IMG/VR virus record: IMGVR_UViG_2713896799_000014
Span: 1 to 40,878 of that record
Reading direction: 5' to 3' (one strand)
DNA length: 40,878 nucleotides
Origin: a virus
Lineage: Duplodnaviria; Heunggongvirae; Uroviricota; Caudoviricetes
Shown: positions 1,009-40,677 of the stretch, piece by piece
Layout of the letters: each line of letters starts with the position of its first letter
How positions within the stretch are numbered: position 1 is the first letter of the stretch
The notes under the pieces: model-generated
The model's input: the letters and a program-made list of their open reading frames with translations, nothing else
Databases searched by the model: none
What the model was told of the DNA's origin: nothing
Program-made: the position numbers and the translations under genes

Positions 1009-1083
1009 GTCCTCTTAGTTAAATGGATATAACGAGCCCCTCCTAAGGGCTAATTGCAGGTTCGATTCCTGCAGGGGACACCA
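1009..1083 (+). tRNA. argW: tRNA-Arg (anticodon CCU)
   Basis: 75-nt cloverleaf read by eye: acceptor GTCCTCT/AGGGGAC, anticodon loop CT-CCT-AA, T-arm GGTTCGATTCC, 3' CCA. Confidence 0.9.
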
Positions 1084-1244
1084 TTTATCAGTTCGCTCCC
1101 ATCCGTACCAGTCCGCAAAATCCCCTGAATATAAAGCCTTCCGTAGATTCACAGTTCGTAATGGTTCGCGTCAGATCGTTGACAGCCGCACTCCATGACG
1201 GGTAAAAAGTGGATAAAATAATTTTACCCACCGGATTTTTACCC

Positions 1245-2402
1245 ATGCTCACCGTTAAGCAGATTGAAGCAGCAAAGCCGAAAGAAAAACCATACCGCCT
1301 TCTCGATGGTAATGGCCTGTACCTTTATGTCCCTGTATCCGGGAAAAAGGTATGGCAGCTTCGCTACAAGATTGACGGTAAGGAGAAAATCATGACCGTC
1401 GGAAAATATCCGCTTATGACTTTGCAGGAGGCCAGGGATAAAGCATGGACTGCGAGGAAAGACATCTCGGTTGGCATCGATCCGGTAAAAGCGAAAAAGG
1501 CTTCGTCTAATAACAATTCCTTTAGTGCGATTTACAAGGAATGGTACGAGCACAAGAAGCAAGTCTGGTCTGTAGGGTATGCGACTGAACTTGCCAAAAT
1601 GTTTGATGACGACATTTTACCCATCATCGGCGGTCTTGAAATTCAGGATATTGAGCCGATGCAACTGCTGGAAGTAATCCGCAGATTTGAAGATCGCGGC
1701 GCAATGGAGCGAGCCAACAAAGCACGCAGAAGATGCGGCGAGGTTTTCCGTTACGCTATTGTCACCGGAAGGGCTAAATATAACCCGGCACCTGACCTTG
1801 CTGACGCCATGAAGGGATACCGCAAGAAGAACTTCCCGTTTCTTCCTGCAGACCAGATCCCGGAATTCAACAAAGCACTGGCAACATTTTCAGGAAGTAT
1901 CGTATCGCTCATTGCCACCAAGGTTTTACGCTACACAGCCCTAAGAACGAAAGAGCTTCGTTCCATGCAATGGAAGAACGTCGATTTTGAAAACAGGATT
2001 ATCACCATCGACGCCAATGTGATGAAGGGACGCAAAATTCATGTGGTTCCTATGTCAGACCAGGTAGTTGAACTTCTCACTACGCTAAGCTCAATCACCA
2101 AACCAGTATCAGAGTTTGTTTTTGCCGGGCGCAACGATAAGAAGAAGCCAATTTGCGAGAACGCTGTACTGCTTGTGATCAAACAAATCGGCTATGAAGG
2201 TCTGGAAAGCGGTCACGGATTCAGGCATGAATTCAGCACGATTATGAACGAGCACGAATGGCCTGCTGATGCTATTGAAGTGCAACTGGCACATGCCAAC
2301 GGCGGATCTGTGCGCGGAATTTACAACCATGCTCAGTATCTCGATAAGCGCAGAGAAATGATGCAGTGGTGGGCGGATTGGATTGATGAAAAGGTGGAGT
2401 GA
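1245..2402 (+). CDS. intS: Tyrosine integrase, P4-type (IntS-like)
   Basis: 385 aa from internal Met MLTVKQIEAAKP; transcribed away from adjacent tRNA; matches recollection of K-12 IntS. Confidence 0.9.
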   Translation: MLTVKQIEAAKPKEKPYRLLDGNGLYLYVPVSGKKVWQLRYKIDGKEKIMTVGKYPLMTLQEARDKAWTARKDISVGIDPVKAKKASSNNNSFSAIYKEWYEHKKQVWSVGYATELAKMFDDDILPIIGGLEIQDIEPMQLLEVIRRFEDRGAMERANKARRRCGEVFRYAIVTGRAKYNPAPDLADAMKGYRKKNFPFLPADQIPEFNKALATFSGSIVSLIATKVLRYTALRTKELRSMQWKNVDFENRIITIDANVMKGRKIHVVPMSDQVVELLTTLSSITKPVSEFVFAGRNDKKKPICENAVLLVIKQIGYEGLESGHGFRHEFSTIMNEHEWPADAIEVQLAHANGGSVRGIYNHAQYLDKRREMMQWWADWIDEKVE

Positions 2403-2544
2403 TCCACCTTAACCACTATCGAAGAGCGCAAAGCCTTGCAATACAGTGCAAAGCTTTGTGTTTCTCATTTTTTCTCACCAGCAACAGAGATAACCGCCCT
2501 ATGTCTACTTAACGAACTAAATAACGTAGATAGTTCAAAATATA

Positions 2545-4503
2545 TTAACCTATTTTTGTGTAGGTCCAATTAAAAGTGCCTGTGCCCTGGCTTGTAATGG
2601 TTACAATTCTCCCTGTTGCTGAAAAACTAAGAAATGCTGCTATTTTTAACGCAACAAGAATTAGCTTATCTCCATCATACATTGCCAGTTGTGTAGATGC
2701 GTAATTTTCTCCGCTTCCAGCCCCCCATACGCTAATAATGTAAGTACCTTGCGAATCTGGTATAGAGAAAAGTGTTGTCGGAGTATTTTCAGCCACAGCA
2801 GTAGAGCCTTTACTGGTAGAGAAGCATGATGTTTGCAATCCTTCCTTAGATGTTATTTGTGAATAACCATCTACGATAAGTCCTGTTTTTTTAGGGCAGT
2901 CATACCATGATACATCACCAGTACTTAGCGTACTTAAAACAGGAGTTCCTGTAGTGGTTGCTCTGAACCGGCTATTAAAGACACTTATTTTAGCTGTGTC
3001 TATTGCATGTAACATAATGGGATACCCAGACCCAGTATATGCAACTGTGTTGTTGTCAGATAAATCATCTTCTGATGACTCAATTTTAACATCGCTGCTA
3101 CCTGACGCCCTGATGTAGGAAACTACACCAGCATCACTTGGCGCAACACTTCGCATGCTGTTCTGATGTGCAGTCAGGCCAGAAATGCCACCACTACTAT
3201 TTTCGAAATGGAATAGTGCTGCCTCTCCATAACCATCTGTAGAGATGGTGTTACCCTCCGCATCAAAACCAATAATGTTAAAACTATGTGTGTTAAGAAC
3301 ATGAACGCCAGCCCCACCAAGCGAACCTGCGTTTAACGAAATATTTGATCCATCCATGGCACAGTTAATCATTGTAGCTGCAAAGACAGAACCAAACTGA
3401 TATGGTGATATACATCCAGATGTATAACATCTTTCCATCAGAATGGTAGTGCCAGTTCCTTTTGTAAAACCATTATGGCAGTTTCTGGCCCACACATTCG
3501 TAAGTTTTGTCAAGTATGTGCCAGTCTGATCATTAAAGCATGACCATGCACCATGAACTGTACAGTTTTTAATTTCAGACATTTCCAAGCTTGTTGAATT
3601 TGGAATTGTCGAGTAGAAATTAAATGCAATTTTCCCACCATCATTTTCAGGATTCGTTGGTGTGGTTCCTGGATCATAGAAAATATAAAGACCATCAATA
3701 AAAATCTGAATCATTTTTGTCGATAGGGAATCACCTTGATCTAAAGCAAAGGCTGAAATATTACCAATAATAGACATAAATGATTGCGCTCTATTTATTG
3801 TATCAGTTCCCTCTCCAACAATCCTAACGGAGTTTTTCAGAAAAATAGTTGAATTATAGTAACCAGTTCCCTTTGGAATAAGCACTGTTTTCCCCGTGTT
3901 ACATGCGGACTGAAGCGCAGCATAATCAACAGATTGAGATAGAGATGAAACAAATGGATATACCATCTGAGCGGCTGATAGTGTTGAAAATATCTCGCTT
4001 AAAGGGTGAAGCGTTCCGTCAATTGTAGCGCCAAAATCAATAACACTTATAGCCTGTGAATTTTTAATGTGCTGTGAAATAGAAGTAGCACCAGTGTACG
4101 GTTGTTTAACTGTAACTAATGCATCCCCCATTCCATCAGCATCGCTTTCTAACTGCTGCTTAAACTGATCAGGGTCATACTTCAGCACATTAGGGAAATA
4201 GAACTGCTGCGCACCATACGCATCGTACACAGCCATAGAATGACCTTGCACAGTTACGAACTTGGCAATCTGTCCATTATATACCGGGTAACCAGCAGCG
4301 TTAATGATGATTGGTTGCGATACAGGAACGTGAGAACCGTCTTCATTCTCCACATAAACCTGAATCCGGTTTTCAGGATTTACCGGGTCAGTGTCAATTT
4401 TTCCGATATAAATTTCTCCATTGGCTACGGCTTTAAAAGAACGCGCCATAGTGAAAAGTTGCGAAGGCATCGATACGATCACATTGGCTGTAATGTCTGT
4501 CAT
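2545..4503 (-). CDS. Tailspike protein (P22 gp9-like N-terminal head-binding domain, divergent receptor-binding domain)
   Basis: N-terminus [29 protein letters not shown] matches P22 gp9 head-binding domain; remainder differs from P22 endorhamnosidase. Confidence 0.85.
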
Positions 4504-4561
4504 TTAATTTGCTCCAGATACAATGAATCGCCGCAGCGTGGCCACGGTGAATTTTGGGCAT

Positions 4562-4584
4562 AAAAAAACCCAGCCGAAGCTGGG
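4562..4584 (-). terminator. Rho-independent terminator between ant and tailspike gene
   Basis: Minus strand CCCAGC-TTCG-GCTGGG followed by TTTTTTT. Confidence 0.65.
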
Positions 4585-4603
4585 TCGTTGCGTTGGTTAT
4601 CTG

Positions 4604-5506
4604 TCAGTAGTTATGTACTGAAGGAGGTAATTCTTTATTCTTAAGTCTCATCCATGCGGAAAGATTCGTTGGTCCGTCTGGCTCATTAATATCAACATCT
4701 CGTGTGTGATTGATTAAAACGTCTCTCGCCATTCCGATAACATACGAGAATTCATGACCGTAGTCGTAGCATCTGCCGGAATAGTTCGATTGAATTTGTT
4801 TTAATGCCGGATACAGTTCGCGGAATAATGCCTGTGAACGGTTAGCATAATCCCATAGCCATACAAGGCTGTTTGCTTCTTTTGCAGAAAGCTCGTTGGT
4901 TTTCTTCTCTTGTTTGCCAATGAACTCACCTTCAAGCACCACCCTGTGGATGTACTCTACGGCTTGCGGTATCTGAGATGCATCAAGCTCTTCAATACTT
5001 TCCACATTGAAACGCTGATGAATCATTGCATAAGCTTCTGGGTACATTAGATGCTTTTTGCTGACCAGCATATTTACAGCATCACGAAGCGGAGTCCTGT
5101 CATCAACAGATGTTTTCTTACGTGCATTTTCTGCCTTTCCCTTTGTCCAGTAGTCATGCAGCACAGTAAAGCATTCTTCCTGGTACTGAATCAGTTTATC
5201 GCGGATGTCAGCACGAACTTTCTCAGGGTTGATGCTGAACAGCCATCCATTTAACTTCTTCAAAGGAAGGCAGAGTAGCTTACGAAGCTTTCCATCAGCA
5301 GCAACCATATTCATATGAATACAGTTGAACTTATCTAGTTGTTTCATAAGTTTTTGTTGCTGAGTACCCCAGCTCATTCCGAGGTTTTCAACGATTGGCT
5401 TCATCGCAACATATGCAACTCCGGCAGCCATGGCGGTGATAATTTGCTGACCGTTGAATGGCACGTAAGAGGTGTTCACTGCTTCTAAAATTGCTATACT
5501 ATTCAT
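4604..5506 (-). CDS. ant: Antirepressor Ant (P22 immI)
   Basis: 300 aa from [12 protein letters not shown] with GGAGA 6 nt upstream; positional and sequence similarity to P22 Ant. Confidence 0.8.
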
Positions 5507-5568
5507 GTTGGTTTTTCTCCAAGGATTTACCGACAACCGAAGCCCTGACTGTTACCGCAGTTGGGGCT

Positions 5569-5793
5569 TCAACTTTTCACTTCTTTAAAGTGCCTACCTT
5601 CTACAGTTGCTCTGAGATAAAAATTCTTATCTTTACCGTTTAGTGCTTCCCAAGCATCAACAATGCACTTATTACAGATGTGGACTTCTCGATAACCAAT
5701 AGCTTTCCTGTCAATATTAGTGAACATAACAGCTTCTTTATCTGTCAATGTGGATGCATGACAGAAGTCGCAATCTATATAAGATACCTTCAT
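5569..5793 (-). CDS. Small Cys4 zinc-ribbon protein, unknown function, inserted between arc and ant
   Basis: 74-aa ORF with CDFC...CNKC; start ATG overlaps arc stop (ATGA); not part of canonical P22 immI. Confidence 0.45.
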   Translation of the reverse strand: MKVSYIDCDFCHASTLTDKEAVMFTNIDRKAIGYREVHICNKCIVDAWEALNGKDKNFYLRATVEGRHFKEVKS

Positions 5794-5948
5794 ACCGTTA
5801 TCCCCTCTCTCTTCAGGCTGTCCATCACTCGCTTGTAAATCTCAGAGTTAACAGATCGCCCGTTCTCTTCCGCCACCTTACGCACCAAATCCAATACTTC
5901 TTTAGGCCACCGCAAATTGAACTGCGGCATTTTGCTCATTCCTTTCAT
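5790..5948 (-). CDS. arc: Arc repressor (ribbon-helix-helix)
   Basis: MKGMSKMPQFNLRWPKEVLDLVRKVAEENGRSVNSEIY matches P22 Arc from memory. Confidence 0.9.
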   Translation of the reverse strand: MKGMSKMPQFNLRWPKEVLDLVRKVAEENGRSVNSEIYKRVMDSLKREGITV

Positions 5949-6038
5949 ATTCACCTCACAATATAGGTCCACCGTGGACCTATTGAGAATATAGTAGAGT
6001 GCTTCTATCATGTCAATACACTAACTTGGGGTGATGGC

Positions 6039-6293
6039 ATGGCTAGAGACGATCCGCACTTTAACTTCCGTATGCCTTTGGAAGTAAGAGAAAAATTGAA
6101 ATTAAGAGCAGAGGCTAACGGAAGGTCAATGAACTCTGAGTTATTACAAATCGTTCAGGATGCTCTCTCAAAGCCATCATCAATTGTAGGCTATCGAGAC
6201 GAAGCTGAGCGAGTCGCGGATGAGCAATCTGACGTTGTTAAGAAGATGGTCTTTGAAACGCTGAAAAATATTTATAGCAAAAGTAAGTTATAG
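6039..6293 (+). CDS. mnt: Mnt repressor (ribbon-helix-helix), divergent from arc-ant
   Basis: MARDDPHFNFRMPLEVREKLKLRAEANGRSMNSELLQIVQDAL matches P22 Mnt from memory. Confidence 0.9.
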   Translation: MARDDPHFNFRMPLEVREKLKLRAEANGRSMNSELLQIVQDALSKPSSIVGYRDEAERVADEQSDVVKKMVFETLKNIYSKSKL

Positions 6294-6342
6294 GCTTATG
6301 ACGTACAGTTAACCATATCGATATTGGCTCGCGTGATGACAA

Positions 6343-7062
6343 ATGAAAAAAAGCAATGGACTCACATTAAAACTTGACGGAACCACCCCTGGCCAGCTGT
6401 CAATGGCTAAGTTGGTCAAGTATATGTCTGCTCTCGTAGATCTATACGGTTCTGCAGATTCTGTTCACTTCGACTGTGTAAGTGAAGGATCGGCTGACTT
6501 AAATGCATGGGTCGATAATGATATTTGTTATAACGCTGTCATAGCAAGGGCCTCTCTCTCAGCCAAAGAGAAATCACCCGCGTATCAAAAAATTGTTAAT
6601 TTACTGGAACATGATGGTTTTTCAGCGAAACTACTCGGACGAAACCACTCAACCATTATCGCATTCCCGCGAGTAAAAAAGGAGCCAATCCCTTTACTCA
6701 TAACAAAAACGTCAGAAGTTCAAGGAAGGCTATACAGTGTTGGTGGAAAAGACAACTCAATACCTGTGCGTATTGAGGGAGCCAACGGTGAAACATTCAA
6801 GTGCGAGGCAACCCCTGATTTGGCGGCAGCTCTTGGGTCCCATCTATTCAAATATATTAGGGTTAAAGGAGATGGGTGCTGGGAAAAAAAGAACAACAAA
6901 TGGGAGCTAAAGAAACTAAAAATAACTTCATTTGTATTGCTCAAAAAATCATCACTCAAGGATGCTATTAATGCTATCAAGCAAGTTCCTGGAGATCAGT
7001 GGTCCGAGGAACGCGATGTTGATTCAATCCTTAGGACTCTGAGGAAGATAAATTGCGAGTAA
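6343..7062 (+). CDS. Hypothetical protein, 239 aa; first gene of mnt-linked moron cassette
   Basis: Long ORF on mnt strand in an AT-rich stretch; no family recognised by eye; stop overlaps next ORF start. Confidence 0.6.
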   Translation: MKKSNGLTLKLDGTTPGQLSMAKLVKYMSALVDLYGSADSVHFDCVSEGSADLNAWVDNDICYNAVIARASLSAKEKSPAYQKIVNLLEHDGFSAKLLGRNHSTIIAFPRVKKEPIPLLITKTSEVQGRLYSVGGKDNSIPVRIEGANGETFKCEATPDLAAALGSHLFKYIRVKGDGCWEKKNNKWELKKLKITSFVLLKKSSLKDAINAIKQVPGDQWSEERDVDSILRTLRKINCE

Positions 7063-7601
7063 TTTTAGATACCAATATTCTGGTATACCTACTATCAGAT
7101 ATAGAACACGATTATAGATTATCTGACCCTATACTTGGTTCTGAGATTCCAGATGCCAAAAGAAGAGCAGAAGCTCTTGTTGATCGAATAGATAACAAGA
7201 ACGGGACAATCATCGTTCCAACTCCTGTATTGGCGGAGTTTTTAGTTGGAATCCATAAAGATTACCAACAAGAAAAACTAAATGTTATCAAATCGTTATC
7301 GTGCTTCGAGACTGTATCATTTGATGAGTTGGCTGCTATTGAATGCGCATCGATACCAACATTAAAAGAATTAAGGAAAATTAGCACAGAAGGTACAGCA
7401 AATAAAATTAAGTTTGACAGACAAATAATAGCAATTGCAAGAGCAATTAATGCTGACGAGGTATGGACTCATGATAAGGGAGTGTTTGAGCGTTGCAAAA
7501 GTCTCAATATTCCTGTGTTCACATTGTCATCAATAGAACCAATTCCGGTTCAAAGTCTCATGGAGTTCTTACACGATTCAGACGATCAGAGATTACACTA
7601 A
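7053..7601 (+). CDS. PIN-domain nuclease-like protein (TTG start)
   Basis: N-terminal ILDTNIL motif with acidic residues at about 6, 62, 122, 141; GAGGAAG 5 nt before TTG; 10-nt overlap with upstream ORF. Confidence 0.6.
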   Translation: MRVILDTNILVYLLSDIEHDYRLSDPILGSEIPDAKRRAEALVDRIDNKNGTIIVPTPVLAEFLVGIHKDYQQEKLNVIKSLSCFETVSFDELAAIECASIPTLKELRKISTEGTANKIKFDRQIIAIARAINADEVWTHDKGVFERCKSLNIPVFTLSSIEPIPVQSLMEFLHDSDDQRLH

Positions 7602-7728
7602 AATATAATTTTTATGCATCCGTGATAATTACATCCGTCACGGATACATAAAGCTATAGCCAAAAGTGGACAAACCTTTATCTCACTCCAAACCATCTGG
7701 TATCCTGCGTAAAACTAAGGAGGTTGGT

Positions 7729-8118
7729 GTGAAGCAATTTCTTGCTGCTATGTTCTTATTCATATCTTTTGGGGCTACAGCAGAGTGCTGGGTCGTTGGA
7801 GATATGCGCGGAATAAGCTATTCAGAACGAAATAATTTCCATCCGGAAGAAGATGGTTTTAGTGGAACATTCATCATTAAGACAAGCGGTGAAGATGCCA
7901 GCATCACATATTCTGGGACAGATGCGGGCGGCATGGCTTACAAAGCATTGTCTAAAAACTCCATCATAGGAATCGGCGCGAATGGCGAAACTCAACGCGT
8001 TATCGACTCATGGGTAATACATCCTACTGGAACAGTTTTAATGTCAAAAACCATTTCCGGTTATGGAAATATGGATTCAACCAAAGCTTTTGTTGGAAAA
8101 GTAAAAAGAAAATGTTAG
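7729..8118 (+). CDS. Small secreted/periplasmic protein, unknown function
   Basis: GTG start preceded by AAGGAGG; N-terminal signal peptide KQFLAAMFLFISFGATA then mature ECWVVGD; the track's upstream start has no RBS. Confidence 0.5.
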   Translation: MKQFLAAMFLFISFGATAECWVVGDMRGISYSERNNFHPEEDGFSGTFIIKTSGEDASITYSGTDAGGMAYKALSKNSIIGIGANGETQRVIDSWVIHPTGTVLMSKTISGYGNMDSTKAFVGKVKRKC

Positions 8119-24337: not shown

Positions 24338-24413
24338 TGGTGCTGGTTAACGGACTTGAACCGCTACCCATTCGCTTACAAGGCGACTGCTCTACCATTA
24401 GAGCTAAACCAGC
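24338..24413 (-). tRNA. Phage-encoded tRNA-Thr (anticodon UGU), hand-folded
   Basis: Minus strand: 7-bp acceptor GCTGGTT/AACCAGC, D-stem GCTC/GAGC, anticodon loop CT-TGT-AA, T-loop TTCAAGT, 3' ACCA. Confidence 0.55.
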
Positions 24414-24418
24414 ATGTT

Positions 24419-24493
24419 TGGCGGGACAGCGTGGACTCGAACCACGATAAGAAGGTTAACAGCCTTCCGTAATGACCTTTATACGACTGACCC
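24419..24493 (-). tRNA. tRNA-like gene, probable tRNA-Asn (anticodon GUU), one acceptor-stem mismatch
   Basis: Minus strand: anticodon stem GAAGG/CCTTC perfect, loop CT-GTT-AA, T-arm CGTGG-TTCGAGT-CCACG, 3' GCCA; acceptor 6 of 7 pairs. Confidence 0.45.
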
Positions 24494-24763: not shown

Positions 24764-25387
24764 CTAACGTGTGACCGCATTCAAAATGTTGTCTGCGATT
24801 GACTCTTCTTTGTGGCATTGCACCACCAGAGCGTCATACAGCGGCTTAACAGTGCGTGACCAGGTGGGTTGAGTAAGGTTTGGGATTAGCATCGTTACAG
24901 CGCGATATGCGGCGCTTGCTGGCATTCTTGAATAGCCGACACCTTTGCATCTTCCGCATTCTTTCTCAACAACTCTCCCCCACAGCTCTGTTTTTGATAT
25001 ATCAACCGCACGGCCTGTACCGTGACAATCTCTGCATCTTGCGCCCGGCGTCGCGGCACTACGGCAATAATCCGCATAAGCGAATGTTGCGAGCACTTGC
25101 AGTACCTTTGCCTTAGTATTTCCTTCAAGCTTTGCCACACCACGGTATTTCCCCGATACCTTGTGTGCAAATTGCATCAGATAGTTGATAGCCTTTTGTT
25201 TGTCGTTCTGGCTGAGTTCGTGCTTACCACAGAATGCAGCCATTCCGAATCCGGCTTGTGATTGCGCCATCCCCATAGCAGCCATCACATCAGTACCGGA
25301 AAGAGAGTCAGAAGCCGTGGCCCGTGGTGAGTCACTCATCATCGGGCTTTTTGGCGAATGAAATTTAGCTACGCTTTCGAGTCTCAT
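24764..25387 (-). CDS. Q: Late antiterminator Q
   Basis: 207 aa; [31 protein letters not shown] and zinc-finger CRDCHGTGR...CGRCKG match lambda Q. Confidence 0.95.
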
Positions 25388-26049
25388 GCGCCTTCTCCCT
25401 GTACCTGAATCAATGTGAGGTTTCCGCAGAACACTGCGCCGGTATCGATATACATCTGGTTGGCAAATTTGAGCGGTTTCACTGCTGGCGTATGACCAAA
25501 GATGAACGTGTCCGCTCCTTTGATTTCTTTCACGATCCCGTCTTGTGAGTTGCTGATTCGTTCGCGGTTCCAGATTACCTGCTGATGATCAACTGGCTTT
25601 CCGAACTCGTATTCATCACAAGGATAATCGGCGTGGCAGATGATATATTTTTTATCTTTGCTCACCAGTTCGATGATTAACGGAAGTTCATCTGCTTTAT
25701 GGGCAAGAGCTTTAGCCAGAATTTCTTTGTCGTAATCGAGATTAAAGAACCAGCCACCGCCATTAAGCAGCCAGTGATTGACGTTTCCACGCTCTGATAA
25801 GCCATCAATCATCATTTGCTCATGGTTTCCACGTACAGCTCTGAACCAGGGGAATGTGATTAATTCCAGGCATTCGACGTTCTCTGTACCGCGATCAACC
25901 AAATCGCCAACCGAGATAAGCAGGTCTTTTTTGGTGTCGAATCCTATCGTCTCCAGTTTTTTCATCAGGTTCGTGTAGCATCCGTGCAGATCGCCAACTA
26001 CCCAAATATTTCGGTATTTGCTGCCATCAATTCTTTCGTAATAGCGCAT
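25384..26049 (-). CDS. ninI: Ser/Thr protein phosphatase NinI
   Basis: 221 aa from [25 protein letters not shown]; metallophosphatase motifs GDLHG, GDLVDRG, GNHE. Confidence 0.9.
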
Positions 26050-26233
26050 CTCTTTCACTCCATCCGCGATGAACCATGAGAACGTCGTTGACGATGGCGT
26101 GCATTTTCCCGTCTTTATCATCAACGTATTTTCTGACCGTACCGCGACTACATTTCAGTCTGCGTGCTACTTCTGTCTGGTTTCCGTATGCTTCAACGAG
26201 CATGTCTGGAATGGTTTTTACTGAGAACGTCAT
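26027..26233 (-). CDS. ninH: NinH
   Basis: 68 aa [37 protein letters not shown] matches lambda NinH. Confidence 0.9.
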
Positions 26234-26832
26234 GCGGCCTCACTTCTGCTATTTCGCAGGTCTTTGAGTTTCTGTTGGTACTCTGCCTTGATCGCCTTGC
26301 ACTCTTCGATAGTCCAGCGATGGCGGTTATGGTTTGATTCGATTTCGTCTACTGCTTCCTGCCCGATTCGGTTAATAAGTTCGACGCGATACGGAACGAG
26401 ATTTCCGCTTTTATGCTGGTTGCACACCACGCATTGCTTGTGAATATTGCGTTCATCAAATCGGAGTTGAGGTGCCGCAGAAGTTGTCCGGTAATGTCCG
26501 GCATCCCACTGAGCAGACGTGAGCGTTCCGCACGAGATACATGGTAAGTCGCGGTCTCTTTCTCTGATGAAGGCGTTTACGGCTTGTTGGGCTTGTTTAA
26601 TCCAGTAACTGCGGGGCTTTAAGGCGAGTTTTCGAATCTTCAGTTTATCTTTCTGTTTCTGCTCCTCTCGTCGTAGTTTCTTCTCTGCTGCTTTTTCCGC
26701 TTTTTCGCGTTCTTTACTTCGTCGTTCGAGTGCTATCTTTGTTCCACAAATCTCATTACACCAATATTGATTTTGATATTTTGGTATAAACCATTCATTG
26801 CAACATTTACATTTCCTTCGATAGATTCGCAT
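26230..26832 (-). CDS. ninG: NinG (Rap-like recombination-associated endonuclease), variant N-terminus
   Basis: 200 aa from [15 protein letters not shown] with AAAGGAG upstream; C-terminal 170 aa match lambda NinG. Confidence 0.85.
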
Positions 26833-27373
26833 AAGTGCTCCTTTCGTTGCCGGAAAAATCACCGTAATACTTATCTCGGGCTTCTTCAGCAACTAGTACC
26901 GCTAACTCCAGATCATCAAAGCATCCGAAGTGTTTACTCTTGCCATGGAAACCTAGCCTAACATTCCATTTTTTCTGTCGTTTGTGCCAAGTAACTCCTC
27001 TGCAACCTGATTTGCTATTCTTTCGGATCCTTATATTTCTTGAATTTTCTATTGGCAGGCATTCTCTTAAATTTTCTGGCCTATTGTCGGTCCTAATTCC
27101 ATTAACGTGGTCAATTTGACCAGCAGGCCAACGATTATGAGTTATGTAAAAAACTAAGACGTGAGTTTTATATCTACGCCCATCTATCATGATCATTGAA
27201 TAACCGTTGGAATCAAAAGTTCCAGCAACACTATTTAATGCTATCCTTCCCTGAGTGGGAACTTTCCATCTAAATACCCCGGTAGATTTATCGAAACTTA
27301 GTAACTCAAATATCCTTTTAACAGTTAAATCTTCTCTTTTACGGTTACATCGTCTTCGCGCTGGTTTAGCCAT
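26807..27373 (-). CDS. HNH homing endonuclease with AP2-type DNA-binding domain
   Basis: HNH motif [33 protein letters not shown] and AP2-like [20 protein letters not shown]; first 9 codons MAKPARRRC copy the ninG start. Confidence 0.7.
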
Positions 27374-27542
27374 CGTCTTCTTCCTCGTGCATCGAGCTAT
27401 TCGGATCGCTCATCAGTTCTGCGCAGCAATCGGAGCACACGTGAACTTCCAGCACATGCAGCTTCTTACCGCAGTTAGCGCACGTTAAAGCCCGCTCGAC
27501 GCTTTCTTTCTGGTATTGAAGGGATTGGGATGGGCTAAGCAT
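27366..27542 (-). CDS. ninF: NinF
   Basis: 58-aa ORF hand-translated as [40 protein letters not shown]; matches lambda NinF. Confidence 0.85.
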   Translation of the reverse strand: MLSPSQSLQYQKESVERALTCANCGKKLHVLEVHVCSDCCAELMSDPNSSMHEEEDDG

Positions 27543-27909
27543 TATTGGCGTCCTGCATCATGAGAAAGACAATCATGGCAGCGCGGAGTGGGTTATTGTC
27601 TATGGTAATAAATTCACAAAATCTATCCGCCTCCCACCAATATTCATTCTTCATTCCATGATTATTTCTTTCGTATGCACATATGCTGATCTGATGTTTT
27701 GCGATTACAGGCCATGCAGCTCTCGGATCATTGCAGTAGTCAGGTAAAGGGTTTAATGGCTCAAGACTTGTATCAGCATTTCCGTAATACCATTTATTGG
27801 TATTATTCCCTGATGTTTCAGGCTTACATGCCCAAAGGCCCTTAAAAATTATGTCTCCTACCATTCTGTTAATTTCAAAATCACTTAACTGTGAATAATC
27901 CATTGTCAT
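27535..27909 (-). CDS. Hypothetical nin-region protein (NinX-like position)
   Basis: ORF between ninE and ninF; start at Met13 overlaps ninE stop (ATGA). Confidence 0.5.
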
Positions 27910-28082
27910 TTCCTCGCACGATATCTTAGCCACCGGATATCCCACAGGTGAGCCGTGTAATTGAAGGTTTTTACGTCAGATTCTTTTGGGATTGGCTTGC
28001 GTTTATTTCTGGAGCGTTTCGTTGGAAGGTATTTGCAGTTTTCGCAGATGATGTCGGTGAAACTTCGTCGCTGTCGTCTCAT
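27906..28082 (-). CDS. ninE: NinE
   Basis: 58 aa from [30 protein letters not shown]; start overlaps ninB stop. Confidence 0.7.
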
Positions 28083-40620: not shown

Positions 40621-40677
40621 TGGCGGTTTTTTATTGCCTGATTTGCAGGTTCGATTCCCTATTCGGAGATAGCACTC

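What the first reader, a model, noticed from the sequence alone, without database searches (positions are those of the whole stretch)
2545..4503. Tailspike with P22-type head-binding domain but a different receptor-binding body
The first roughly 110 residues match the P22 gp9 head-binding domain, after which the sequence no longer resembles the P22 endorhamnosidase. The body is rich in Gly/Ser/Thr/Asn, suggesting a beta-helix. This predicts a different O-antigen or capsule receptor specificity from P22.
Basis: partly seen in the sequence, partly recalled or inferred. Interest (0 to 1): 0.4.

Follow-up and report, generated by a model that had tools for sequence, protein, structure and literature searches.

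The report
Prophage tailspike probably specific for O2 antigen
This is an ordinary modular tailspike gene of a P22-like E. coli prophage: a standard P22-type attachment domain is fused to an uncharacterised beta-helix receptor domain that, judging from its hosts, most likely recognises and cuts the E. coli O2/O50 O-antigen.

Summary
ORF 2545-4503 (minus strand, 652 aa) starts with a P22-type head-binding domain (Pfam PF09008, residues 1-113, E 1e-65; 71% identical to P22 gp9, about 94% to CUS-3). From about residue 117 it no longer resembles the P22 endorhamnosidase. The AlphaFold model of residues 150-652 is confident: a right-handed parallel beta-helix followed by a C-terminal beta-sandwich. 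Its closest structural matches are tailspikes and polysaccharide-active beta-helix enzymes, at no more than 18% identity.

The body is an exchangeable cassette. At 98% identity it also occurs in a 751-aa tail protein of an epsilon15/phiV10-like prophage. At 50-65% identity it occurs in T1-like siphophage tailspikes. The family is small and unannotated (phrog_8649; 17 representatives among 1.84 billion).

All 7 complete E. coli genomes that carry this body at 97% nucleotide identity or more have the O2/O50 wzx/wzy cluster, against 133 of 5,426 genomes overall. They span three prophage contexts. I therefore predict an O2(/O50) O-antigen-specific endoglycosidase. A lyase is unlikely because that O-unit has no uronic acid. 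D384 and E416 are the only invariant acidic residues.

No characterised tailspike matches it full-length, so the refutation test fails. It is a new member of a known kind, of modest interest.

The parts
2545..4503 (-). Tailspike gene (652 codons plus stop), the gene 9 equivalent of a P22-like prophage
   Evidence: ORF list. Pfam Head_binding. PDB and phage matches. The exact protein occurs in at least 59 assembly blocks, always next to int-argW-yfdC.
4165..4503 (-). Residues 1-113: P22-type head-binding (tail-attachment) domain
   Evidence: PF09008 E 1.3e-65. 71% identical to P22 gp9, about 94% to the CUS-3 tailspike N-terminus, and 84-89% to the Sf6 gp14 N-domain in Foldseek. The low pLDDT here reflects the shallow alignment in this region, not disorder.
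4054..4164 (-). Residues 114-150: linker/neck and module junction (YDPDQF | [15 protein letters not shown]...)
   Evidence: Identity to CUS-3 ends at about residue 124. Identity to the 751-aa epsilon15-like tail protein begins at residue 117. Megablast identity to the FT130 gene starts at nt 420 of the query. The CUS-3 record annotates a 'boundary sequence' under this match.
2899..4053 (-). Residues 151-535: right-handed parallel beta-helix, the predicted O-antigen-binding and catalytic domain. Its first ~90 residues (151-240) are a cap shared with many tailspikes.
3352..3354 (-). Codon D384 (NCAMD): candidate catalytic carboxylate
   Evidence: Invariant in 40 homologues and in 21 homologues down to 27% identity. 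Codon checked. The catalytic role is inferred, not shown.
3256..3264 (-). Codons D414-A415-E416 (GFDAEGN): candidate catalytic carboxylates, about 32 residues from D384 (roughly one helix rung, by analogy with P22)
   Evidence: E416 is invariant and D414 at least 90% conserved. Both are conserved in the 639-aa paralogue. Codons checked. The catalytic role is inferred.
2548..2898 (-). Residues 536-652: C-terminal beta-sandwich domain (probably for trimer assembly or stability)
   Evidence: The model shows about 10 antiparallel strands with pLDDT 79-94. The C-terminal motif TFNWTYTK-G is conserved across the family. The function is inferred by analogy with other tailspikes.
4567..4586 (-). Terminator-like hairpin plus T-run between ant and the tailspike gene
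   Evidence: Consensus scan and sequence. This is the same position as the terminator after ant in P22 (own knowledge). Function not tested.
4604..5536 (-). Antirepressor (ant) upstream of the tailspike; immI region context
   Evidence: ORF. The equivalent genes in identical contexts carry P22_AR_N/P22_AR_C.
1209..2402 (+). IntS-type integrase, convergent with the tailspike gene. No gene lies in the 142-bp gap between them.
   Evidence: ORF. Phage_integrase Pfam families in identical contexts. Annotated intS in MFDS1019527.
1009..1083 (+). tRNA-Arg(CCU) argW, the integration site. The attL core TTGCAGGTTCGATTCC is at 1054-1069.
   Evidence: ARAGORN. Exact 16-nt repeat.
40643..40658 (+). attR core (same 16-mer), giving a prophage of about 39.6 kb

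Best explanation
The gene encodes the tailspike of a P22-like (IME10/CUS-3/Sf6-type) temperate podovirus integrated at argW.

Residues 1-113 dock the trimer onto the tail (shown by homology). Residues 151-535 form a parallel beta-helix that binds the host O-polysaccharide and most likely cleaves it by hydrolysis. This lets the virion work its way down to the outer membrane, as P22, Sf6 and HK620 tailspikes do (inferred by analogy). Residues 536-652 form a C-terminal beta-sandwich.

The predicted substrate is the E. coli O2 O-antigen, and possibly O50, which shares its main chain. That main chain is three L-Rha plus GlcNAc, with a D-Fuc3NAc branch in O2. The enzyme would therefore be an endoglycosidase, for example an endorhamnosidase. 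D384 and E416, assisted by D414 and D325, are the candidate catalytic carboxylates.

The receptor-binding body is a horizontally exchanged cassette joined to different virion adaptors at a semi-conserved linker around residue 117.
For: Tailspike identity: PF09008 E 1e-65. N-domain matches to P22, Sf6 and CUS-3. The gene sits in the canonical gp16-immI-ant-tailspike-int order. The virion module is 96-97% identical to phages IME10 and APC_JM3.2.

Specificity:
- The body occurs at 97% nucleotide identity or more in only 7 of 5,426 complete E. coli genomes.
- All 7 carry the O2/O50 wzx/wzy: ETEC1730; ETEC1703, ETEC1717, ETEC1718 and PEC422; FT130; MFDS1019527.
- Only 133 of 5,426 genomes have that wzy. 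The hypergeometric P is 4.5e-12 if all 7 are treated as independent, or about 1.5e-5 counting only three independent lineages.
- The carriers come from swine in Belgium, cattle in Korea and a migratory bird in China.
- They hold the cassette in three contexts: argW P22-like, a torT-adjacent P22-like prophage, and a yfgI-adjacent epsilon15-like prophage.
- One source name on a 97%-body 751-aa homologue (P0005) reads 'Escherichia coli O2'; the same label also appears on P0141, a member of the 639-aa paralogue family.
- A 97% copy exists in E. marmotae, a species in which O2-O50 is a common O-genotype (PMC11546641).
- FdtB of ETEC1730 is identical to that of an O2:K1:H5 strain. None of the three hosts checked has the His-to-Arg change reported for O50 (PMC7685785).

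Hydrolase rather than lyase: O2 and O50 units contain Rha, GlcNAc and Fuc3NAc, with no uronic acid reported (PMC7685785 and PMC5293828).

Catalytic candidates: D384 and E416 are the only acidic residues invariant down to 27% identity. They lie about one rung apart.
Against: - No biochemical or host-range data exist for this protein or any close relative. No paper on an O2-specific tailspike was found.
- The host association is correlative. Five of the seven carriers are related porcine isolates.
- A resident prophage shows that the ancestor of the host was infectable, not what the spike cleaves.
- Some carriers have a frameshifted wzy (ETEC1730), or a disrupted tailspike (PEC422 by IS3; MFDS1019527 by frameshift), so current phenotypes are uncertain.
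- The O-type of the window's own host could not be read, because it lies outside the window.
- The active-site assignment rests on conservation only.
Confidence: 0.72

Rival explanations
1. The spike recognises a modified form of the O2 antigen (for example O-acetylated), or distinguishes O2 from O50, rather than the plain O2/O50 backbone. The divergent 639-aa paralogue found in the same hosts would then cover the other form.
For: Two distinct body types are both tied to O2/O50 hosts and co-occur in FT130, MFDS1019527 and two other chromosomes. They are 55% identical overall, and only 20-40% in the central helix. The 639-aa spike and the 751-aa spike are each followed by an acyltransferase gene. 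This is the classic arrangement for O-antigen-modifying seroconversion (own knowledge: Sf6 oac, phiV10). The window prophage has no homologue of the 639-aa prophage's Oac-type acyltransferase, the only modification gene searched for.
Against: No evidence that the acyltransferases act on the O-antigen. ETEC17xx genomes carry the 652-aa type without the 639-aa type (one search lists none of them). This is a refinement of the main explanation, not a contradiction of it.
Confidence: 0.15
2. The receptor is a capsule or other exopolysaccharide (K-antigen, colanic acid) and the enzyme is a lyase, as with the CUS-3 endosialidase or K5 lyase. On this view the O2/O50 link is a by-product of host clonality.
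Against: The CUS-3 and phrog_8280 matches cover the shared N-terminal adaptor and cap only. The carriers are ecologically and geographically diverse, use three prophage contexts, and share the O2/O50 cluster 7 out of 7 times. O2 strains in the collection carry different K types (K1, K2; names).
Confidence: 0.06
3. The protein binds the O-antigen but has no enzymatic activity (a fibre-like adhesin), or it is a decaying gene in a defective prophage.
For: No catalytic motif from a known family was detected. Pfam PF12708 scores only 15.7 bits, below its cut-off. Copies in PEC422 and MFDS1019527 are disrupted.
Against: The window copy is intact. An identical protein occurs in at least 59 assembly blocks. 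Strictly conserved D384 and E416 on the helix across 27-98% identity homologues suggest a preserved active site. The related siphophage SU57, whose spike is 51% identical in the body, forms plaques with halos (PMC7718038), though that paper doubts the gene is expressed.
Confidence: 0.07

Closest known systems
Sf6 gp14 tailspike (endorhamnosidase; PDB 2vbk, 4urr, 7sg7)
   Same: Same N-terminal head-binding domain (about 90% identical). Weak but significant homology continues into the beta-helix cap to about residue 256 (E 1e-75 overall; 1e-6 for residues 120-256 alone). Best Foldseek PDB hit. Its substrate is also a Rha3-GlcNAc O-antigen backbone (own knowledge). The prophage integrates at argW with the same gene order (own knowledge).
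   Different: The central helix and C-terminal domain show no sequence similarity (13-14% identity in the structural alignment). The catalytic residues of Sf6 could not be mapped onto this protein. The host O-antigen differs (S. flexneri Y/X against E. coli O2).
P22 gp9 tailspike (endorhamnosidase)
   Same: Head-binding domain 71% identical over residues 2-117. Same overall architecture of adaptor, beta-helix and C-terminal domain, and the same genomic position after ant.
   Different: No sequence match beyond residue 117. Different C-terminal fold type in the model (a separate beta-sandwich). Different host and O-antigen.
CUS-3 endosialidase tailspike and HK620 tailspike
   Same: CUS-3 has the most similar N-terminal adaptor (94% over residues 1-124) and the same argW prophage type. 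HK620 is 61% identical over residues 1-216.
   Different: Their bodies are unrelated. CUS-3 carries an endosialidase. HK620 carries an endo-N-acetylglucosaminidase beta-helix, with 12-13% structural-alignment identity.
751-aa tail protein of epsilon15/phiV10-like E. coli prophages (e.g. FT130 WP_178969917.1; P0002-P0028)
   Same: Receptor-binding body 98% identical over residues 117-652. Its hosts are also O2/O50.
   Different: A completely different 215-residue N-terminal adaptor and a different virion type (T7 gp14-family core protein). It is followed by an acyltransferase gene. It is itself uncharacterised.
Tailspikes / 'lateral tail fibres' of T1-like Drexlerviridae (Veterinaerplatzvirus JeanPiccard, SU57, RobRod40) and PF18668-headed metagenomic spikes
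   Same: The body is homologous over its full length at 46-65% identity. Same PHROG, phrog_8649.
   Different: Different adaptors and siphovirus chassis. At this divergence the specificity may differ. No receptor has been assigned; the SU57 paper only notes the gene.
Pseudomonas phage LKA1 gp49 and phi297 gp27 tailspikes (PDB 4ru4, 4ru5)
   Different: The similarity is confined to the helix cap. Identity is 13-18% elsewhere. Different host genus and substrate.

Membership tests
P22-like (Lederbergvirus-type) tailspike | N-terminal head-binding domain (Pfam PF09008) | tested here: met
   E 1.3e-65, 219 bits against a cut-off of 24, residues 1-113 covering the full profile. 71% identical to P22 gp9.
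P22-like (Lederbergvirus-type) tailspike | Last late gene of a P22-like virion module, after gp16 / immI (mnt, arc, ant) | tested here: met
   ORF order in the window. Pfam labels in identical contexts: Inj_translocase, Phage_P22_gp16, Arc/Mnt, P22_AR. Virion genes are 96-97% identical to IME10 and 83% to P22.
P22-like (Lederbergvirus-type) tailspike | Right-handed parallel beta-helix receptor-binding domain | tested here: met
P22-like (Lederbergvirus-type) tailspike | Homotrimer | not tested
   Only a monomer was modelled. Trimerisation is assumed by analogy.
P22 gp9 / Sf6 gp14 endorhamnosidase bodies specifically | Sequence homology across the catalytic beta-helix, with the known catalytic carboxylates | tested here: not met
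   No alignment to P22 beyond residue 117. Alignment to Sf6 only as far as about residue 256. 13-20% identity in structural alignments.
O-antigen-specific depolymerase (glycoside hydrolase) tailspike | Cleaves a defined O-polysaccharide | not testable with these tools
   Indirect only: 7 of 7 carrier genomes are O2/O50 against 2.45% background. The substrate lacks uronic acid.
O-antigen-specific depolymerase (glycoside hydrolase) tailspike | Conserved acidic catalytic residues on the helix | tested here: inconclusive
   D384 and E416 are invariant; D325 and D414 are at least 90% conserved. Their geometry and role were not verified.
Pfam PF12708 Pect-lyase_RHGA_epim | Score above the gathering threshold (27 bits) | tested here: not met
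   15.7 bits, E 0.014. Some homologues carry the precomputed hit.
Polysaccharide lyase / mannuronan epimerase (AlgE4-like) | Uronic-acid substrate and the YG(F/I)DPH(D/E) catalytic motif | tested here: not met

The most novel reading that the evidence does not exclude
O2 E. coli and its prophages may preserve a receptor arms race. At least two divergent beta-helix spikes are both tied to O2/O50 hosts: the 652/751-aa type and the 639-aa type. They often sit in the same polylysogenic genome, and two of the three carrier prophage types encode an acyltransferase right next to the spike. The most novel reading not excluded is that the window's spike has evolved to use an O2 antigen already modified by a resident seroconverting prophage. 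That would let it superinfect lysogens that exclude the other phages. The spike family would then give a natural pair of enzymes discriminating acetylated from non-acetylated O2 glycan.
Probability: 0.12. Interest if true: 0.6.

Novelty: new member of a known kind. Interest (0 to 1): 0.3.

Why it matters
O2 is one of the major ExPEC and APEC serogroups. A defined O2-specific tailspike would be directly useful as a typing or capture reagent. It could also serve as a glycan-degrading anti-virulence enzyme, or as a receptor-binding module for retargeting tailocins or therapeutic phages. That approach has already been used for O26, O111, O145 and O157 prophage spikes (PMC11762384; PMC10408124).

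It is also a clean example of one receptor-binding cassette moving between P22-like, epsilon15-like and T1-like phages at a conserved linker. Conceptually it adds nothing new to what is known about modular tailspikes.

Tried and rejected
- Searched papers for the carrier strains' serotypes (ETEC1730 etc.). Nothing relevant came back, so I read the O-antigen clusters from the genome annotations instead.
- Searched for a published O2-specific tailspike or depolymerase. None was found; the 'serogroup O2' hits were word-start matches to O26 and similar.
- Read the SU57 paper hoping for receptor data on the 51%-identical spike. It reports only halo-forming plaques and doubts that the gene is expressed.
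- Profile search of the family against PDB sequences. This did not extend homology beyond the roughly 90-residue helix cap, so catalytic residues could not be transferred from a solved structure.
- The BFVD fold search returned only uncharacterised 'pectate lyase superfamily' phage proteins, at 20% identity or less.
- Considered that frameshifted wzy in ETEC1730, ETEC1703 and PEC422 (962 nt against 963 nt) shows selection for receptor loss in lysogens. I did not pursue this, because single-base indels in long-read assemblies are unreliable and several non-carrier O2 genomes show the same length.
- The first MAFFT alignment misaligned the head-binding domains of some homologues. I used pairwise BLASTP to place the junction instead.
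- Looked for an O-antigen acetyltransferase homologue in the window by tblastn and found none. gtrABC-type genes were not searched exhaustively.

Full report
**What is there.** The window holds a complete P22-like prophage of about 39.6 kb, inserted in the tRNA-Arg(CCU) gene argW beside yfdC. The 16-nt core TTGCAGGTTCGATTCC occurs at 1054-1069 inside the tRNA and again at 40643-40658. The flagged ORF, 2545..4503 on the minus strand, is real: ATG start, GGAG 9 nt upstream, 652 codons. It follows the antirepressor gene ant (4604-5536, minus strand) and a terminator-like hairpin (4567-4586). It converges on the IntS-type integrase gene (1209-2402), with nothing in the 142-bp gap between them. The virion module of the prophage is 96-97% identical at DNA level to coliphages IME10 and APC_JM3.2, and 83% to P22.

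**Check of the observation.**
- Pfam Head_binding (PF09008) covers residues 1-113 with E 1.3e-65.
- Against PDB sequences, residues 2-117 align to P22 gp9 (E about 1e-50; 83/117 = 71% identity). Residues 1-256 align to Sf6 gp14 (E 1e-75), nearly identical up to about residue 113 and weak afterwards. Nothing of P22 gp9 aligns after residue 117.
- G+S+T+N is 38.8% in residues 117-652, against 25.0% in the window's long ORFs.
- An AlphaFold2 model built on 40 homologues is confident for residues 150-652 (pLDDT mostly 85-97). It shows the short, regularly spaced strands of a parallel beta-helix (about 205-535), followed by a beta-sandwich (536-652). The N-terminal domain scored low only because few aligned sequences contain it.
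- Foldseek ranks Sf6, P22, phi297, LKA1 and HK620 spikes first.

Both the observation and the beta-helix guess are confirmed.

**Module structure and relatives.** The N-terminal adaptor is most like that of the K1-capsule phage CUS-3 (94% over residues 1-124). It matches more than a thousand E. coli prophage spikes over the first ~350-400 nt, mostly at 80-95% DNA identity.

From residue 117 (QLESDADG...) the protein is 98% identical to the C-terminal 536 residues of a 751-aa 'phage tail protein' with an unrelated 215-residue N-terminus. In strain FT130 that gene lies in an epsilon15/phiV10-like prophage, with a T7 gp14-family core protein, beside yfgI. It is followed by a 619-aa acyltransferase gene.

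The same body occurs at 46-65% identity on PF18668-type adaptors and in T1-like siphophages (Veterinaerplatzvirus JeanPiccard, SU57, RobRod40).

An exhaustive HMMER scan of 1.84 billion cluster representatives finds only 17 with E no greater than 1e-30, about a dozen of them covering the full length. The many weaker hits cover only the first ~90 residues of the body. That cap is the only part with sequence similarity to solved structures: LKA1 gp49, phi297 gp27 and Sf6. PHROGs files the body under phrog_8649, 'unknown function'. The body is therefore a small, uncharacterised, horizontally mobile receptor-binding cassette. It is joined to different adaptors at a semi-conserved linker. The CUS-3 record even annotates a 'boundary sequence' there.

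**Is it already known?** The exact 652-aa sequence is in public databases. It belongs to a 90%-identity cluster of 122 members and occurs in at least 59 assembly blocks, always beside int-argW-yfdC. It is named only 'phage head-binding domain-containing protein'. No record in the 50,697-genome phage collection has this body at more than 55% identity on a P22-type spike. I found no paper assigning a receptor to it or to any relative.

**Receptor inference.**
- *Carriers and background.* Among 5,426 complete E. coli genomes, the body is present at 97% nucleotide identity or more in seven: ETEC1730, ETEC1703, ETEC1717, ETEC1718, PEC422, MFDS1019527 and FT130. I read or searched the O-antigen locus of each. 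All seven carry genes that RefSeq annotates as the O2/O50-family flippase and polymerase, with the rmlBDAC and fdtABC genes expected for an O-unit containing L-Rha and D-Fuc3NAc. Only 133 of 5,426 genomes (2.45%) have this wzy.
- *Statistics.* The chance of 7 out of 7 is 4.5e-12 if the carriers are independent. It is still about 1.5e-5 if the related porcine isolates are collapsed, leaving three lineages.
- *Independence.* The carriers have different hosts and countries. They hold the cassette in three contexts: the argW P22-like prophage, a torT-adjacent P22-like prophage, and the epsilon15-like prophage.
- *Other support.* One source name on a close homologue reads 'E. coli O2'. A 97% copy is found in E. 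marmotae, a species in which O2-O50 is a frequent O-genotype (PMC11546641).
- *O2 versus O50.* O2 and O50 share the main chain, and O2 adds a D-Fuc3NAc branch. The reported genetic difference is a His-to-Arg change in FdtB (PMC7685785). FdtB of ETEC1730 is identical to that of an O2:K1:H5 strain. MFDS1019527 and FT130 have no His-to-Arg change relative to it. The hosts therefore look like O2 rather than O50.

Across 40 homologues, and then 21 homologues down to 27% identity, the only invariant acidic residues are D384 (NCAMD) and E416 (GFDAEGN). D325 and D414 are at least 90% conserved. All four are also conserved in the 639-aa paralogue. D384 and E416 are 32 residues apart, about one rung. 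This resembles the spacing of the P22 catalytic carboxylates (own knowledge). They are my candidates for the catalytic pair, but this is inference only: I could not inspect model coordinates.

**Rivals.**
- A capsule or colanic-acid depolymerase is suggested only by matches that cover the shared adaptor and cap. It does not explain the O2/O50 association.
- A non-enzymatic adhesin or decaying gene is possible for individual copies. PEC422 is IS3-interrupted and MFDS1019527 is frameshifted. However, the window copy is intact and widely conserved.
- The most interesting refinement is that the spike prefers a modified O2 antigen. A second P22-type spike of 639 aa is 55% identical overall and only 20-40% in the central helix. 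It occurs in 8 complete genomes, at least 7 of them O2/O50, and co-resides with the present type in FT130 and MFDS1019527. It is followed by an Acyl_transf_3 gene, as is the 751-aa form. The window prophage has no such acyltransferase homologue.

**Verdict.** This is a correct and well-described finding, but of a familiar kind: a mosaic P22-type tailspike with an uncharacterised beta-helix cassette. The added value here is a specific, testable receptor prediction (E. coli O2, perhaps also O50; a hydrolase; D384 and E416), together with the map of where else the cassette travels. Novelty: new member of a known kind. Interest: about 0.3.

Noticed in passing
L018:5001-8044 (GCA_000194575.2) and 8 complete genomes, e.g. 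NZ_CP169309.1 3494519-3495839: A second P22-type tailspike family of 639 aa lies in a P22-like prophage beside ybhB/bioA, immediately followed by a 374-aa Acyl_transf_3 gene. It is 55% identical to the window spike overall and 20-40% in the central helix. Its body occurs in 8 complete E. coli genomes, at least 7 of them O2/O50. It co-occurs with the window-type body in FT130 and MFDS1019527.
   Followed up: partly
L017:11285-15435 (FT130, NZ_CP040090.1): The same receptor-binding body (98%) sits on a 751-aa tail protein of an epsilon15/phiV10-like prophage next to yfgI. A 619-aa acyltransferase gene lies convergently downstream and may be an O-antigen-modifying seroconversion gene.
   Followed up: partly
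window 6343-7601 (+): Cargo in the immI region: a 239-aa ORF with no Pfam hit overlaps by 10 nt a 182-aa PIN-domain ORF (PF01850, E 4e-10). This looks like a two-gene toxin-antitoxin or defence-type module. Other copies of the same argW prophage carry P63C, SocA_Panacea, ClpP-like or SieA genes at this spot instead.
   Followed up: partly
window 7666-8118 (+): A 150-aa ORF with a hydrophobic N-terminal segment and no Pfam hit lies between the PIN gene and the gp16-like injection gene. It is a possible secreted or membrane-bound moron protein.
   Followed up: no
window 24338-24493 (-): Two tRNA genes, tRNA-Thr(UGU) and tRNA-Asn(GUU), lie inside the prophage.
   Followed up: no
L003:22461-23422 (ETEC1730 wzy); NZ_CM168005.1 1463069-1466363; L021:5001-6958: Signs of decay in lysogens. 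The O2/O50 wzy is annotated as frameshifted in ETEC1730. The tailspike is split by an IS3 element in PEC422. In MFDS1019527 the tailspike is frameshifted and ant is also cut by IS2. These could reflect receptor or spike loss under phage pressure, or assembly errors.
   Followed up: partly
L001 (ETEC1730, NZ_CP122832.1 3128092-3142050): In the Belgian porcine ETEC strain ETEC1730, the only one of them whose context was fetched, the 98.4%-identical (DNA) tailspike belongs to a P22-like prophage lying next to torT, with only an integrase fragment left, not at argW. The spike has therefore moved between P22-like prophages with different integration modules.
   Followed up: partly
window 25000-28000 and 2000-8000: G+C drops to 39-45% in the tailspike/immI region and around 26-28 kb, against about 50% in the virion module. 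This is consistent with mosaic acquisition of these segments.
   Followed up: no
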